DNA of 59,720 nt from a virus (Duplodnaviria > Caudoviricetes): positions 1 through 59,720 of the IMG/VR virus record IMGVR_UViG_3300045996_001340. One strand, 5' to 3'. A program made the translations under genes and the position numbers. Shown one piece after another: positions 7,062-57,922 of this stretch. The notes beneath the pieces were generated by a model. The model was given only the letters and a program-made list of their open reading frames with translations, was not told the DNA's origin and made no database searches. The first letter of the stretch is position 1, and each line of letters starts with the position of its first letter.

Positions 7062-7145
7062 GTAACGGTTGGTACATTGGAAGGTCCCGGCGGTTGTAAC
7101 CCGCCCGCTTCGGCCTTGGCGGTTCGACTCCGTCCCGTTTCACCA
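7062..7145 (+). tRNA. tRNA-Tyr(GTA)
   Basis: GGCGG-TTGTAAC-CCGCC anticodon arm, long variable arm, GGTTCGACTCC T-arm, CCA end; one acceptor mismatch. Confidence 0.8.
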
Positions 7146-7202
7146 CAAGTAGCGGCCCTTCCCCGAGGCGAGCGCCAATAAATTTCGGGGGAGCGATTCT
7201 GC

Positions 7203-7279
7203 GCACGAGTGGTCCAGCGGCCACGATGCTGAGCTCCAAACTCATGAGACGGGGGTTCGAGTCCCTCCTCGTTGCGCCA
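7203..7279 (+). tRNA. tRNA-Trp(CCA)
   Basis: TGAG-CTCCAAA-CTCA anticodon arm, GGTTCGAGTCC T-arm, G-CCA end; bulged acceptor stem. Confidence 0.8.
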
Positions 7280-55444: not shown

Positions 55445-55656
55445 TTCGGCCCCGCTTCTGTGTTGGGAGTCGTCGTCAGCACGAGATCGCCGCGCGCGTA
55501 CTCGCACGAAGAGCATCGGCAATCCCGGTAAGGGATCAGCGGATCTTTGCTCCAGTGCGTGAACGGAATGACCGGGCCTTGCACGCCTTTGCGTGGATCA
55601 CCCAAGAACTTCTGCGCTTGGCAGATCGGGCACGGACCGTGGATAGCGCAACTCAT
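55441..55656 (-). CDS. Small Zn-binding hypothetical protein
   Basis: CAIHGPCPIC...CRCSSC. Confidence 0.55.
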   Translation of the reverse strand: MSCAIHGPCPICQAQKFLGDPRKGVQGPVIPFTHWSKDPLIPYRDCRCSSCEYARGDLVLTTTPNTEAGPK

Positions 55657-55820
55657 GGACTAGGAATCTCCTGATGTGCGATGCGAACGCCGTCGAGCCA
55701 TTTACGGCGCGCTCGGCGAAGCTCTGTTCTGATCTCTATCGGATAGTCATGCGCAGCCAGAATCGCCTCGTGGTTCCTCACGAAGGCATCGACATCGGCT
55801 TGCGTCCAAGGTGTTCTCAT
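55653..55820 (-). CDS. 55-aa hypothetical protein (MRTPWTQAD...QEIPSP)
   Basis: Manual translation; ATGA coupling. Confidence 0.55.
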   Translation of the reverse strand: MRTPWTQADVDAFVRNHEAILAAHDYPIEIRTELRRARRKWLDGVRIAHQEIPSP

Positions 55821-55879
55821 GGAGTCACTTCGGGTTGATGTTCGCTTTAATAAGGTCGATCGCTATTAAAGGTTCAGGC

Positions 55880-56072
55880 CATTGGCCTAAAACTGGCAAG
55901 TAGCCATTGCTAAGTCATTGATGTACAGTGTAGCCCAAAGTAGGCCAAAGTCACCGTAACTCGTTGATTTCGTTGAGCTCCCGTACCCTTGACATGGGCA
56001 GGTTTGTGGCACGTAACTCATTGAATTCATTAGCGATCGCACTGGTCACTGTACAAAAGACTGGCCTAAAGC
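55880..56072. other. Probable attP
   Basis: IHF-like sites at 55911, 55957 and 56014; arm-like repeats TGGCCTAAA (x2) and GTAG[CG]CCAAAG (x2); central CCC-TTGACAT-GGG; near the integrase. Confidence 0.7.
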
Positions 56073-56199
56073 TCGACGCTGCACCCGGCACGGCAGGCGC
56101 GGTGGCCGGAATAGAGATCAATCCAGTCGACACCGTGCGGGCAGTGGCCCGTCGGTAACACCTGTGCGCGCGTGATCCAGGTTATCTCCTTCTGAACTG

Positions 56200-56274
56200 G
56201 GGCGGTTAGCTCAGCGGTAGAGCACGTCGTTGACATCGACGGGGTCACAGGTTCAATCCCTGTACCGCCCACCA
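56200..56274 (+). tRNA. tRNA-Val(GAC), full length
   Basis: GGGCGGT/ACCGCCC acceptor, AGCTCAG.GGTAGAGC D-arm, CGTCG-TTGACAT-CGACG anticodon arm, GGTTCAATCC T-arm, ACCA end. Confidence 0.95.
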
Positions 56275-56403
56275 TTCCGAGTGCTTGCTTCGCGGTCAGG
56301 GACAGATCATCGTGGTACTTGCCTTGCGCATCCCAGCCGTACGCTTGGACGCCTGCGTAGAACTGCAACGCTCGTTTGAGTGCGATGATCTTGCCGTGCT
56401 TCG

Positions 56404-56649
56404 TCATACGACCAAGTCCTCGTCCGAAGCAAACGCATGCTCCAAGCCGAACCGTTCGTAGAGCTCGCCGCCGTTGTAAGAGGCGATGCGCAGCAGGTTC
56501 ACTGCGATCTTCTCGAGCTGTTCAACGGTCAGGTCGTCAGCCGCGAGAGTATTGAAAGAGCCGTCGACTGCAACCGAGATGTCGAACTTGCTGCTGTGCT
56601 CGTCCACGTACATAAAATCGCGGATGATCGGGTACTCGGTGCTCATCAC
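56404..56649 (-). CDS. Hypothetical protein
   Basis: Coupled to the integrase stop. Confidence 0.6.
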   Translation of the reverse strand: MMSTEYPIIRDFMYVDEHSSKFDISVAVDGSFNTLAADDLTVEQLEKIAVNLLRIASYNGGELYERFGLEHAFASDEDLVV

Positions 56650-57746
56650 ATGCTCCCGTCGTTCGCCGCCGCGCCGAAGAAAATGTTCGCGTTAGCGGAC
56701 ATCGGTGCGTTGTTCGCCAAAAGGTACTTCGCCATCCAGCTCGGGTTCACGGCGCGCAGCAGGCGCTCTGCTGAGTCAGCGGCGGCGCGCATGTAGTCGG
56801 GGCGGTAGTGCGCGTAGCGCTCCGTCTCGCCGCCCACAGCGTGGCCCAGCGCACCCTTGACGTCCCACTCCGGCACGTTCTCCTTGCGCATCCAGATCGC
56901 GACTGCCTTGCGGATGCCGTAGGCCGTGCCGTTGACGGCCGCGCGCTTGGCGAGGCGTCGGAACGTCATCTTGAACCCCTTCAAAGGGCGGCCGTTCCAC
57001 TGCACGATCGGGCCGAGCGATCGACGCTCGTTCAGGTACGCAAGCGCGGGCGCGCAGACAGGCGCCTTGGCGCGTCGCTTCTTCGTGAGTCGTCGCCCCG
57101 GCACCACATAGTCGGCAACGCCGGTCTGCGCGTTGAGCCGATCCCAGGTCAAGTCCAGTGTGGCACCGGGGCGCGGTGCGGTTGCAAGACAGAGGAGGAA
57201 GAAGAGGCGCTCGTGCTCCGACTGACATGCTTCGGCCAGGCGCTGGAGTTCGGGCAGTTCGAACGGGCGCACGCCATCGCCATCAGTCGCGTTGATCTTG
57301 AGGACCGTCGGCATCGTGGGCAGGTCGCCGTTGTCGACGCACCACTGGATCGCGGCGCGGATGATGCCCATGTTGCGGCGCTGTGTGCCGGCGCTCGGGC
57401 CGAGGAGCTTCGCGAACTGCTTCTGTCGGCCGATCGGCCAGTCGTAGACTCGAGTGTTCGGCTCGTGCTCGACGACGCGCTTCATCGTCGTGCGGATCGA
57501 GTCGGTCTGGAACAGGTGCTGGCCGTGATGCTCCCAGTACAGCAGCATCGCGCCGACCAATGTCATCTGGTCGTTCTGTTCTCGGTTCGGCTTCTTGAGG
57601 ATGAACTGCGCGAGCTTCTGATCGGCGAGCTTGCGATCTGTTGTGCGAGTGCTAGTTCGCTGCCACTGTCCGGTCTTTGGGTCGTAGTCGTGGTAGATGT
57701 ACCAGTTCGGCGAACCGTGACGCTTGTCGATGTAGCTGCGGGACAT
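56646..57746 (-). CDS. int: Tyrosine integrase
   Basis: TAPR (R), K, YGIR (HxxR variant), LGH, catalytic RYAH. Confidence 0.88.
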   Translation of the reverse strand: MSRSYIDKRHGSPNWYIYHDYDPKTGQWQRTSTRTTDRKLADQKLAQFILKKPNREQNDQMTLVGAMLLYWEHHGQHLFQTDSIRTTMKRVVEHEPNTRVYDWPIGRQKQFAKLLGPSAGTQRRNMGIIRAAIQWCVDNGDLPTMPTVLKINATDGDGVRPFELPELQRLAEACQSEHERLFFLLCLATAPRPGATLDLTWDRLNAQTGVADYVVPGRRLTKKRRAKAPVCAPALAYLNERRSLGPIVQWNGRPLKGFKMTFRRLAKRAAVNGTAYGIRKAVAIWMRKENVPEWDVKGALGHAVGGETERYAHYRPDYMRAAADSAERLLRAVNPSWMAKYLLANNAPMSANANIFFGAAANDGSM

Positions 57747-57922
57747 TCTCGTGCCTTCAGGTATTGGCTGACATGCTCTTCAGTGAACCGGATCTTCTTG
57801 CCGGCGAAAGTGTACGACAGCCGGCCGCGGCGCCGTTCGCGCGCAACCGTCTCCTCGTCCACTCCCAGGTAGGCGGCCAGGTCTCTTTCCGTGTACAGCT
57901 TCGGCAATTGCACGACAGTCAT
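57563..57922 (-). CDS. xis: Excisionase-like HTH protein overlapping the int 5' end
   Basis: LYTERDLAAYLGV...TV...RRRGRL...GKKIRF. Confidence 0.78.
   Translation of the reverse strand: MTVVQLPKLYTERDLAAYLGVDEETVARERRRGRLSYTFAGKKIRFTEEHVSQYLKARECPAATSTSVTVRRTGTSTTTTTQRPDSGSELALAQQIASSPIRSSRSSSSRSRTENRTTR

What the first reader, a model, noticed from the sequence alone, without database searches (positions are those of the whole stretch)
55880..56274. attP core mimics the tRNA-Val anticodon loop, and a complete recoded tRNA-Val sits beside it
Seen: CCC-TTGACAT-GGG (55986-55998) lies between IHF-like sites and arm-like repeats. TTGACAT is the anticodon loop of the intact tRNA-Val(GAC) about 200 bp downstream, whose stem is different (CGTCG/CGACG). 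The core is not followed by a tRNA 3' half. Known: many tyrosine integrases cross over in the 7-nt anticodon loop and normally restore the gene with a 3' fragment, and E. coli tRNA-Val(GAC) has CCTTGACATGG. Inference: this phage destroys the host tRNA-Val on integration and complements it with a full copy that its own integrase cannot target, so lysogens may depend on the phage tRNA.
Basis: partly seen in the sequence, partly recalled or inferred. Interest (0 to 1): 0.8.

Follow-up and report, generated by a model that had tools for sequence, protein, structure and literature searches.

The report
Phage attP that breaks tRNA-Val
This soil phage seems to insert into its host's valine tRNA gene without repairing it and to bring its own complete copy of that tRNA instead, a lysogeny strategy first described in 2024 in mycobacteriophages and seen here in an unrelated phage group.

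Summary
CCCTTGACATGGG (55986-55998) occurs once (0.01 expected) and is the positional homologue of the crossover core in a family of xis-int-attP modules. In 10 of 17 distinct modules, a tRNA-Val(GAC) 3' fragment starting at CC-TTGACAT-GG sits at that core, opposite to int. One such fragment is 47/47 identical to the Methylobacterium bullatum tRNA-Val(GAC).

The window keeps the core, the P arm and a P' arm repeat. It has no tRNA 3' half at the core, and a complete tRNA-Val(GAC) lies between attP and int. Three other contigs (L011, L093, L096), in a different well-supported integrase clade, show the same layout. Their tRNA is 100% conserved while the flanks are 62-86% identical.

The best reading is tRNA-dependent lysogeny (Guerrero-Bustamante and Hatfull 2024). 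That makes this a new member of a known kind: a new integrase family, a new target tRNA, a probable alphaproteobacterial soil host, and at least two origins.

No attL/attR junction was found, so integration at the core is inferred, not shown. "Recoded so that its own integrase cannot target it" is compatible with the data but unproven. The CG|loop|CG stem type is common in Alphaproteobacteria. The window's exact stem was found in 0 of 401 genomes searched.

The parts
57563..57922 (-). Excisionase-like gene (119 aa). Its 3' part overlaps the start of int.
   Evidence: phrog_66 'excisionase and transcriptional regulator', E 2.8e-9. Homologues lie upstream of int in L005-L013.
56646..57746 (-). 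Tyrosine integrase (366 aa), the only one in the window.
   Evidence: PF00589, 39.3 bits against a cut-off of 27.1. It is the single PF00589 match in a six-frame search of the window. It is 63-66% identical to the integrases of L004-L007. Its tail ...WMAKYLLANN...GAAANDGSM lacks the part that is encoded by the tRNA fragment and core in 53 of 85 family proteins.
56404..56649 (-). ORF of 81 aa of unknown function. Its start overlaps the int stop.
   Evidence: No Pfam or PHROG hit. No homologue in the relatives' loci.
56066..56407 (-). Open frame of 113 aa that runs antisense through the tRNA gene. Only its first 44 codons lie outside the tRNA. Its status as a gene is uncertain.
   Evidence: No family hit.
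56200..56274 (+). Complete tRNA-Val(GAC) with encoded CCA and anticodon stem CGTCG/CGACG. Proposed replacement for the disrupted host tRNA. It has the same orientation as the core and lies on the P' side of attP.
   Evidence: ARAGORN. Rfam 67.7 bits. The nearest natural alleles collected are 70/75 identical; 4 of the 5 differences are two compensated pairs in the anticodon stem. The arm was found in 0 of 401 genomes and the whole tRNA (up to 3 mismatches) in 0 of 331 genomes.
56062..56073 (-). P' arm repeat AGCTTTAGGCCA, a putative arm-type integrase site. The overlapping motif TTAGGCCAGT (56060-56069) lies 64 nt from the loop.
   Evidence: It is one of only two matches to AGYTTTAGGCCA in the window, 0.00 expected. 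MAFFT aligns it with the relatives' P' CTTGCCAGT site. I counted the same 64-nt spacing by eye in L093 and L096 (sequences).
56012..56031 (+). Core-proximal direct repeat, P' side copy.
   Evidence: family D2, 85% identical; score 15, reached by 0 of 500 shuffles. Its function is unknown.
55986..55998 (+). attP core CCC-TTGACAT-GGG. The probable overlap region is TTGACAT (55989-55995), equal to the anticodon loop of tRNA-Val(GAC). 11 bp (CCTTGACATGG) are shared with CC/GG-type host tRNAs.
   Evidence: It is the positional homologue of the ATGTCAAGG core of L004-L011. CC/GG-type tRNA-Val(GAC) is present in M. bullatum and in 55 of 401 genomes.
55955..55974 (+). Core-proximal direct repeat, P side copy.
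55880..55985 (-). P arm. It holds the conserved block ATCAATGACTT (55912-55922 on the - strand), the arm motif CTTGCCAGT (55892-55900) and the repeat AGTTTTAGGCCA (55883-55894).
   Evidence: MAFFT alignment with the P arms of L004, L006, L007, L008, L010 and L011, which keep the same distance from the core..

Best explanation
Window 55880-56075 is a self-contained attP of a lambda-type tyrosine integrase whose family targets the anticodon loop of tRNA-Val(GAC).

In most relatives, attP carries the tRNA from CC-TTGACAT-GG to the CCA end, so integration rebuilds the gene. In this phage only the 11-13 bp stem-loop mimic is left. Integration would therefore split the host tRNA-Val(GAC) and leave no functional copy at either junction.

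The complete tRNA-Val(GAC) at 56200-56274 lies on the P' side of attP in the same orientation as the core. It would supply the lost function. This is 'tRNA-dependent lysogeny'.

Shown:
- The core and arms are homologous to the attPs of the family.
- There is no tRNA 3' half at the core.
- A complete cognate tRNA is present.
- The layout recurs in a second integrase clade.
- The phage tRNA is under strong conservation in that clade.
- Natural CC/GG-type target tRNAs exist.

Inferred:
- Crossover happens in TTGACAT.
- The host tRNA is disrupted.
- The phage tRNA complements it.
- The host is probably a soil alphaproteobacterium.
For: 1. Core and P arm align with the attPs of L004, L006, L007, L008, L010 and L011 at a fixed distance to ATCAATGACTT and CTTGCCAGT.

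2. Standard relatives carry a tRNA-Val 3' fragment exactly at that core. L004's 47-nt fragment is 47/47 identical to the M. bullatum tRNA-Val(GAC).

3. Of 17 distinct readable modules:
- 10 have the fragment opposite to int;
- 2 have it inverted;
- 1 has a tRNA-Lys(TTT)-like fragment;
- 4 (the window, L011, L093, L096) have a complete tRNA-Val(GAC) between int and a fragment-less core.

4. In the integrase tree, the window sits in a 100/100 clade with standard L004, L006 and L007. L011, L093 and L096 sit in another 100/100 clade with standard L008 and L010. This means at least two origins.

5. Among L011, L093 and L096 the tRNA is 100% identical, while the int 3' end is 83-86%, the spacer 62-75% and the P arm 78-85% identical. 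The exact core survives although the neighbouring sequence is unrecognisable as tRNA.

6. The arm repeat AGYTTTAGGCCA occurs only twice in the window, one copy on each side of the core.

7. There is only one integrase in the window. Phage genes lie on both sides. Independent soil-run contigs span 55923-56073 and 56064-56236 without a difference, although run X1 may be the source sample.

8. The same mechanism is proven in mycobacteriophages, with cores of 8-17 bp and relatives that rebuild the tRNA with 43-45 bp cores (PMC10865867: abstract and sections 5, 6, 10, 11 read).

9. It is also described bioinformatically for S. meliloti prophages that disrupt tRNA-Leu(UAG) (PMC11476347: passages read).

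10. The target-type pattern is single-copy in 54 of the 55 genomes that hold it.
Against: - No attL or attR was found. There were no close integrase relatives in 401 alphaproteobacterial genomes (10 distant hits, none beside a tRNA-Val target), nor in the family and order of G018 (11 genomes), the order of G320 (2) or the order of G230 (130).
- Nothing but tRNA matches turned up in the plasmid and phage collections.
- The soil runs show no loose end at the core, but the phage is there at only 2-4x and as contigs.
- No host with a xxCCC/GGGxx stem was seen among the 56 matches, so the shared core may be 11 bp, not 13.
- My idea that the P' spacer is a decayed tRNA fragment failed its control.
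- The host is not identified.
- Whether tRNA-Val(GAC) is essential in that host is unknown.
Confidence: 0.62

Rival explanations
1. The complete tRNA at 56200-56274 is itself the attP core. The phage crosses over in the anticodon loop of its own tRNA copy and rebuilds the host gene. The 55880-56075 region is then only a distant P arm or a fossil.
For: The tRNA lies between int and the AT-richer region, in the same orientation relative to int as the fragments of the standard relatives. It contains TTGACAT. Its body is 70/75 identical to natural CC-type tRNAs, so it could recombine with a host gene.
Against: - The bases next to the loop are CG|CG. All nine distinct standard cores in the two clades concerned, and all four fragment-less cores, have CC|GG.
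- In L011 and L096 the int frame runs straight into the CCA end of the tRNA, and the P' arm sites are deleted there. A tRNA-centred attP would have no P' arm.
- In the window, no arm repeat lies between the tRNA and int.
- The exact core, the P arm and a P' site at the same 64-nt spacing are kept in four diverged contigs. A fossil would not be expected to keep them.
Confidence: 0.15
2. The 55880-56075 attP is a dead relic, or the module no longer integrates. The tRNA is ordinary phage cargo for translation or for countering defence, like the tRNA-Tyr and tRNA-Trp at 7062-7275.
For: The window carries two other tRNAs. Phage tRNAs are common. The int 3' end of the window, of L093 and of P0061, P0062, P0079 and P0100 already holds what looks like a decayed attP remnant (AAND tails), so attP decay does happen in this family. 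No junction was found.
Against: - The tRNA isotype equals the family's target in all four fragment-less modules.
- The tRNA lies directly beside attP, co-oriented with the core, in all four.
- The core and arm repeats are intact.
- xis and int are intact open frames.
Confidence: 0.13
3. The contig is an integrated prophage, a tandem array or an assembly chimera. The complete tRNA is the host's gene at a junction.
For: A complete tRNA next to int, 3' end towards int, is what the int-proximal junction of a standard relative would look like. The record is linear and estimated 84% complete. The identical tRNA in L011, L093 and L096 could suggest a host gene.
Against: - Phage genes (primase-helicase, DNA polymerase, structural genes) fill the 56 kb on the 5' side of the tRNA, and there is no second integrase.
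- An uninterrupted P arm, core and P' site follows the tRNA.
- Short contigs from other soil runs bridge 55923-56073 and 56064-56236.
- The 75-nt tRNA (up to 3 mismatches) was found in 0 of 331 genomes searched.
Confidence: 0.05
4. TTGACAT at 55989 is a chance match or the -35 box of a promoter, with no link to recombination.
For: TTGACA is the sigma-70 -35 consensus. TTGACAT itself is not enriched in the window (3 matches against 3.98 expected).
Against: No promoter-like site was found in 55600-56700. The 13-mer is expected 0.01 times. The motif is at the homologous position of the attP core in the relatives.
Confidence: 0.03

Closest known systems
tRNA-dependent lysogeny of actinobacteriophages (Fionnbharth K4, Cluster L, Cain, Gaia, BrutonGaster, OneUp, Mollymur). 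Guerrero-Bustamante and Hatfull, mBio 2024, PMC10865867 (abstract and sections 5, 6, 10, 11 read).
   Same: - A tyrosine integrase with arm-type sites.
- attB in a tRNA gene, and a common core of only 8-17 bp (here 11-13 bp), so the tRNA is not rebuilt.
[quoted passage not shown]
- Close relatives with related integrases rebuild the tRNA with a core of about 43-45 bp (here 47 nt).
- The trait arose more than once.
- In Fionnbharth the phage tRNA overlaps a protein frame on the opposite strand. The window tRNA does the same with the frame 56066-56407.
   Different: - The phages are unrelated. The window is a podovirus-like genome whose DNA polymerase is about 36% identical to those of BPP-1 and BcepC6B-type phages.
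- The host is probably alphaproteobacterial.
- The target is tRNA-Val(GAC), which is not among the targets in the paper's Table 2.
- Here the tRNA lies directly beside attP on the P' side and co-oriented with the core. Fionnbharth's tRNA is reported at gene 37, with a promoter of its own.
- In this family the standard attP lies inside the int reading frame.
- Nothing here is tested experimentally.
[quoted passage not shown]
   Same: The host is an alphaproteobacterium. Integration is into the central part of a tRNA gene, which is inactivated. The prophage carries a tRNA of the same isoacceptor that resembles alleles of unrelated Alphaproteobacteria. The L011-type tRNA behaves the same way: its nearest natural allele is CG-type, with 4 differences.
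   Different: The target is tRNA-Leu(UAG), not tRNA-Val(GAC). Those cases are integrated prophages with mapped ends; here only the free attP form is seen. No Mesorhizobium phage was named among the hits to the window integrase at E<=1e-5 in the phage collection, but whether that phage's record is in the collection was not checked.
Canonical tRNA-targeting attP sites with crossover in the anticodon loop (integrase sublocation classes of Williams 2002, recalled and cited in PMC11476347). The standard relatives L004-L010, L088-L092 and L095 belong here.
   Same: The same integrase family. The core is at the anticodon loop. Arm-type repeats flank it on both sides, and xis-int lies next to attP.
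   Different: The defining 3' tRNA fragment that restores the gene is missing in the window. It is tested and not met.
Lj965 prophage of Lactobacillus johnsonii (mentioned in the Discussion of PMC10865867; the original papers were not read).
   Same: It is reported there as a prophage that fails to rebuild the tRNA at a junction and encodes a cognate tRNA.
   Different: The host is a Firmicute. No comparison of sequences was made here.

Membership tests
tRNA-dependent lysogeny (as defined in PMC10865867) | A phage-encoded tyrosine integrase with an attP site. | tested here: met
   PF00589. attP core and arms are homologous to the family attPs. Arm repeats flank the core.
tRNA-dependent lysogeny (as defined in PMC10865867) | attB overlaps a host tRNA gene. 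| tested here: inconclusive
   Inferred from the family. The relatives' attPs carry tRNA-Val(GAC) 3' fragments, one of them 47/47 identical to the M. bullatum tRNA. The core equals the anticodon stem-loop. No attL, attR or attB of this phage was found.
tRNA-dependent lysogeny (as defined in PMC10865867) | The common core is too short (about 8-17 bp) to rebuild the tRNA at a junction. | tested here: met
   11 bp (CCTTGACATGG) are shared with natural CC/GG-type tRNAs. No tRNA 3' half lies beside the core. This holds on the attP side only.
tRNA-dependent lysogeny (as defined in PMC10865867) | [quoted passage not shown] | tested here: met
   tRNA-Val(GAC) at 56200-56274. The same is true in L011, L093 and L096.
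tRNA-dependent lysogeny (as defined in PMC10865867) | The phage tRNA is required for viable lysogens (clear plaques without it). | not testable with these tools
   This needs the phage and its host. Indirect evidence only: the tRNA is 100% conserved among L011, L093 and L096 while their flanks are 62-86% identical.
Canonical tRNA-restoring attP | attP carries the 3' part of the target tRNA, so that an intact gene is regenerated. | tested here: not met
   There is no similarity to the relatives' fragments above shuffles (478 of 500 shuffles reach the score). There is no Rfam tRNA hit at the core.
Heterobivalent (lambda-type) tyrosine integrase system | Arm-type sites on both sides of a core with inverted core-type sites, and an excisionase. 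| tested here: met
   Two copies of the arm repeat. CCC/GGG flanks the 7-nt loop. An xis-like gene is present. The N-terminal arm-binding domain of Int was not tested separately.
int genes that contain attP (Mx8 intP type, recalled from memory) | attP lies inside the int reading frame, so integration changes the Int C-terminus. | tested here: not met
   It is met in the relatives: 53 of 85 family proteins read through the Val core and 12 through a Lys-type core. It is not met in the window, where int stops at 56646, about 650 nt from the core.

The most novel reading that the evidence does not exclude
The module is a cis 'whole-gene replacement cassette'.

In all four fragment-less modules the phage tRNA lies just beyond the P' arm and is co-oriented with the core. 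Its 5' end is about 75 nt (L011, L093, L096) to 204 nt (window) from the loop.

After integration, the host's own tRNA-Val promoter and truncated 5' half would lie directly upstream. They could then drive the phage tRNA as a processed co-transcript. No sigma-70-like promoter was seen upstream of the window tRNA.

In the window lineage, the tRNA looks like a copy of a target-type host allele whose anticodon stem was changed by two compensated pairs, including the loop-closing pair. This would remove the CC|GG core-type sites and protect the phage tRNA from its own integrase.
Probability: 0.3. Interest if true: 0.6.

Novelty: new member of a known kind. Interest (0 to 1): 0.5.

Why it matters
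tRNA-dependent lysogeny has been proven only in actinobacteriophages, and its authors asked how common it is elsewhere.

This window and three metagenome contigs indicate it in an unrelated integrase family of soil phages with probable alphaproteobacterial hosts. The target tRNA is new, and tRNA-restoring and tRNA-replacing attPs occur side by side within single integrase clades.

Such a family is a natural series for asking how the switch evolves. It is also a warning for prophage-boundary tools that rely on a long attP/attB identity, and for annotation that treats phage tRNAs only as translation aids.

If the cassette reading holds, it also gives a simple design rule for integration vectors in Alphaproteobacteria: int, attP and the tRNA must travel together.

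Tried and rejected
- **Near and distant DNA searches** of the region against the phage collection found only tRNA matches.
- **Integrase search by single protein** found only 24-29% relatives in genome contigs and none in viral contigs. The alignment A1 was needed.
- **Promoter reading of TTGACA**: no promoter-like or terminator-like site in 55600-56700.
- **'The P' spacer is a decayed tRNA 3' fragment'**: rejected. For the window, L011, L093 and L096, the scores were reached by 478, 228, 300 and 245 of 500 shuffles.
- **'A core-flanking direct repeat is a class feature'**: rejected. It is significant only in the window (0 of 500 shuffles). It is marginal in L096 (42 of 500) and absent in L011, L093 and the nine standard attPs tested.
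- **More fragment-less members**: exact scans of viral contigs with the L011 tRNA and with a gapped arm-core-arm pattern returned only contigs already known, plus L212, which I did not inspect.
- **Integrated forms**: none found.
  - 10 of 401 genomes had only distant integrases.
  - orders and families around G018, G320 and G230.
  - plasmid and phage collections.
- **Sequencing runs**: three soil metagenome runs hold the phage at 2-4x as short contigs. There is no loose end or joint at the core, and parts of the region have no cover. This says nothing either way about integration.
- **Host naming**: Only M. bullatum (from the plasmid collection) could be named as an organism with a target-type tRNA identical to L004's fragment. 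It is not shown to be a host.
- **Supplements**: Fig. S1 and S2 of PMC10865867 (arm-type sites) and Table S2 of PMC11476347 (att sequences) were not seen and may bear on the comparison.

Full report
**What the window is**

The window is a linear IMG/VR virus record of 59,720 bp, estimated 84% complete. It is a podovirus-like genome.
- Terminase, portal-like adaptor, major head and tail genes lie on the + strand at about 8.7-36 kb.
- DNA polymerase, primase-helicase and many small genes lie on the - strand.
- The DNA polymerase is about 36% identical to those of the BPP-1, BcepC6B and Ralstonia RpY1-type phages.
- No close DNA relative is in the phage collection.

On the - strand, in order, lie:
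- an excisionase-like gene (57563-57922, phrog_66);
- the only tyrosine integrase of the window (56646-57746; PF00589; single six-frame match);
- an 81-aa ORF;
- a frame that runs antisense through the tRNA.

Then follow the + strand tRNA-Val(GAC) (56200-56274) and a repeat-rich stretch at 55860-56075.

**The observation**

- CCCTTGACATGGG is at 55986-55998. It is the only match in the window, with 0.01 expected.
- TTGACAT alone is not enriched (3 matches against 3.98 expected).
- No tRNA 3' half follows the motif.
- AGYTTTAGGCCA occurs exactly twice in the window, at 55883-55894 and 56062-56073, both on the - strand, with 0.00 expected. One copy lies on each side of the motif.
- A 20-24 nt imperfect direct repeat also brackets the motif.
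- No sigma-70-like promoter or terminator is predicted in 55600-56700, so the '-35 box' reading has no support.

**Relatives**

The integrase has many metagenomic relatives at 40-70% identity. An alignment of 39 of them (A1) brought in loci from viral contigs and metagenome contigs.

In the close relatives, the DNA just after int holds, on the opposite strand, the 3' part of a tRNA-Val(GAC). It runs from CC-TTGACAT-GG to the CCA end. It is followed by a conserved arm that ends in paired CTTGCCAG(T) repeats, and the same repeats lie on the other side within the last codons of int.

L004's 47-nt fragment is 47/47 identical to the tRNA-Val(GAC) of Methylobacterium bullatum, whose anticodon stem is CTACC/GGTAG. 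This is a classical attP whose crossover lies at the anticodon loop.

MAFFT aligns window 55880-55998 with that arm and core. The core ATGTCAAGG, the block ATCAA-GACTT and the CTTGCCAGT site keep the same distances.

**A second class of attP**

Of 17 distinct modules whose downstream region can be read:
- 10 have the Val fragment opposite to int: L004/L005, L006, L007, L008/L009, L010, L088, L089, L091, L092, L095;
- 2 have it in the other orientation: L012, L013;
- 1 has a tRNA-Lys(TTT)-like fragment: L086;
- 4 have no fragment at the core but a complete tRNA-Val(GAC) between int and the core: the window, L011, L093, L096.

L087, L094 and L097 end inside int and were left out.

In L093 and L096 a CTTGCCAG site follows the tRNA's 5' end. 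By my count on the sequences, it lies 64 nt from the loop. That is the same spacing as the window's TTAGGCCAGT site at 56060-56069.

L011, L093 and L096 are different phages.
- Their int 3' ends are 83-86% identical, the spacer 62-75%, the P arm 78-85%, and the DNA further on about 62-65%.
- Yet the tRNA is 100% identical in all three.
- This points to strong purifying selection on the tRNA.

In the integrase tree:
- the window falls in a 100/100 clade with the standard L004, L006 and L007 (and L086);
- L011, L093 and L096 fall in another 100/100 clade with the standard L008 and L010.

The fragment-less, tRNA-carrying design therefore arose, or was transferred, at least twice.

**Mechanism**

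Only identity in the overlap region and recognisable core-type sites are needed for a tyrosine integrase to recombine (general knowledge of lambda-type systems). An attP reduced to CC(C)-TTGACAT-GG(G) can still pair with a tRNA-Val(GAC) gene. But the products would be a 5' half fused to phage DNA and phage DNA fused to a 3' half, which means no functional tRNA. The complete phage tRNA of the same anticodon then has an obvious role.

This is the published 'tRNA-dependent lysogeny'. In Fionnbharth and other actinobacteriophages:
- attP and attB share 8-17 bp;
- the host tRNA is not rebuilt;
- the phage tRNA is required for viable lysogens;
- related phages with related integrases rebuild the tRNA with 43-45 bp cores;
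- the trait evolved more than once.

(PMC10865867: abstract and sections 5, 6, 10 and 11 read.)

A bioinformatic counterpart exists in an alphaproteobacterium. S. meliloti prophages like Mesorhizobium phage vB_MloP_Lo5R7ANS disrupt tRNA-Leu(UAG) and carry a replacement that resembles alleles of unrelated Alphaproteobacteria (PMC11476347 and PMC12429752: passages read).

My two literature searches listed no paper, by title or abstract, that describes a tRNA-Val(GAC) case. Most of the listed papers were not opened, and the library does not hold most subscription journals.

**Is the phage tRNA 'recoded'?**

Target-type tRNA-Val(GAC), with CC|loop|GG, is present in 55 of 401 sampled alphaproteobacterial genomes. 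It is single-copy in 54 of them. The stems are CTACC, CTTCC, TTGCC/CTGCC, CATCC and TCACC, and none is xxCCC (the count includes one unpublished genome, G242).

The 30 alphaproteobacterial tRNA-Val(GAC) genes most like L011's tRNA all have CG|loop|CG. The stem type of the phage tRNAs is therefore an ordinary natural type. The L011-type tRNA looks like a foreign CG-type allele (nearest natural allele: 4 differences).

For the window tRNA the picture is more suggestive.
- Among 61 natural alleles collected, the nearest are CC/GG-type alleles (L220 and L221, from G018 and G331).
- They differ at 5 of 75 positions. Four of these are two compensated pairs in the anticodon stem, one of them the loop-closing pair.
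- L226 and L227 show the same four differences.
- The 61 are a biased set, chosen by likeness to L011's tRNA or by the CC/GG pattern.
- The window's anticodon arm was found in 0 of 401 genomes (up to 1 mismatch). The whole tRNA was found in 0 of 331 genomes (up to 3 mismatches).

This fits a host-derived tRNA whose stem was changed so that it no longer offers CC|GG core sites. However, natural alleles with the same body also differ in that stem (L220 against L230). Drift is therefore not excluded, and nothing shows that the integrase discriminates between the two stem types.

**What is missing**

No junction was found.
- Integrase relatives in 401 sampled alphaproteobacterial genomes are all distant, and none lies beside a tRNA-Val target.
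- Searches in the family and order of G018 (11 genomes), the order of G320 (2) and the order of G230 (130) gave one distant hit beside tRNA-Ala genes.
- The plasmid and phage collections gave only tRNA matches.
- Three soil metagenome runs hold the phage at 2-4x as short contigs. One contig spans 55923-56073 and another 56064-56236 without a difference, which shows the uninterrupted attP form. At this depth, nothing can be said about integrated forms.

The habitat label of the runs is soil.

**Verdict**

The finding is therefore a new member of a known kind, not a new mechanism.

What is new here:
- the target, tRNA-Val(GAC);
- the phage and integrase lineage;
- the repeated switch between restoring and replacing designs within one integrase family, whose standard attP lies inside the int reading frame;
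- the constant placement of the tRNA directly beside attP, co-oriented with the core. After integration this would put the tRNA just downstream of the host tRNA promoter. That last step is an inference.

I put the probability that the phage integrates at 55989-55995 and relies on its own tRNA-Val at about 0.6.

Noticed in passing
L004-L010, L088-L092 (int 3' ends); proteins P0003-P0084: In the standard relatives, the int reading frame runs through the whole attP. The P' arm sites are read as WLASYLPV, the tRNA fragment as GGRDRDRTCDP, the core as YHVKD, and the stop lies in the P arm (ANDD*). Integration would therefore replace the last 30 or so residues of Int. Of 85 family proteins, 53 read through a Val-type core and 12 through a Lys-type core. 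This resembles what I recall of Mx8 intP.
   Followed up: partly
L086:2061-2200; proteins with QFLKR tails (for example P0019, P0026, P0037): A subgroup of the same integrase clade carries a tRNA-Lys(TTT)-like 3' fragment at the core instead of tRNA-Val. The target tRNA has therefore switched within the family.
   Followed up: partly
window 56646-56730; L093:600-690; P0061, P0062, P0079, P0100: Integrases of the window and L093, and four further proteins, end in ...AAND(G). This looks like the P-arm-encoded end of the standard tail without the tRNA and core part. It may be a decayed first copy of attP inside int.
   Followed up: partly
L093:671-1230: Between int and the tRNA, L093 has an ORF of about 190 aa. 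By eye its C-terminal part looks HNH-endonuclease-like. It was not tested against any library.
   Followed up: no
L245:2628-3055 (genome G509): A distant integrase relative (213 bits to A1) lies beside two identical complete tRNA-Ala(GGC) genes 352 nt apart. A P-arm-like GGTTAATGATGAC motif lies between them. This may be another tRNA-carrying integration module.
   Followed up: no
L012:3996-4160, L013:5984-6125: In these relatives (42% identical integrases), the tRNA-Val fragment and arm sites lie in the same orientation as int. The attP is inverted relative to int.
   Followed up: no
window 7062-7275: Two further phage tRNA genes, tRNA-Tyr(GTA) and tRNA-Trp(CCA), lie just before the packaging and structural genes.
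   Followed up: no
window 56066-56407 (- strand): A 113-codon open frame starts 133 nt beyond the tRNA's 3' end and reads antisense through the whole tRNA. The Fionnbharth tRNA is reported to overlap gene 37 in the same way (PMC10865867, section 6).
   Followed up: no
L011:5112-5125 against L096:472-485: The arm site next to the tRNA reads CTGGCAAG in L011 and CTTGCCAG in L096 and L093. It is an 8-nt site in the opposite orientation within otherwise alignable sequence.
   Followed up: no
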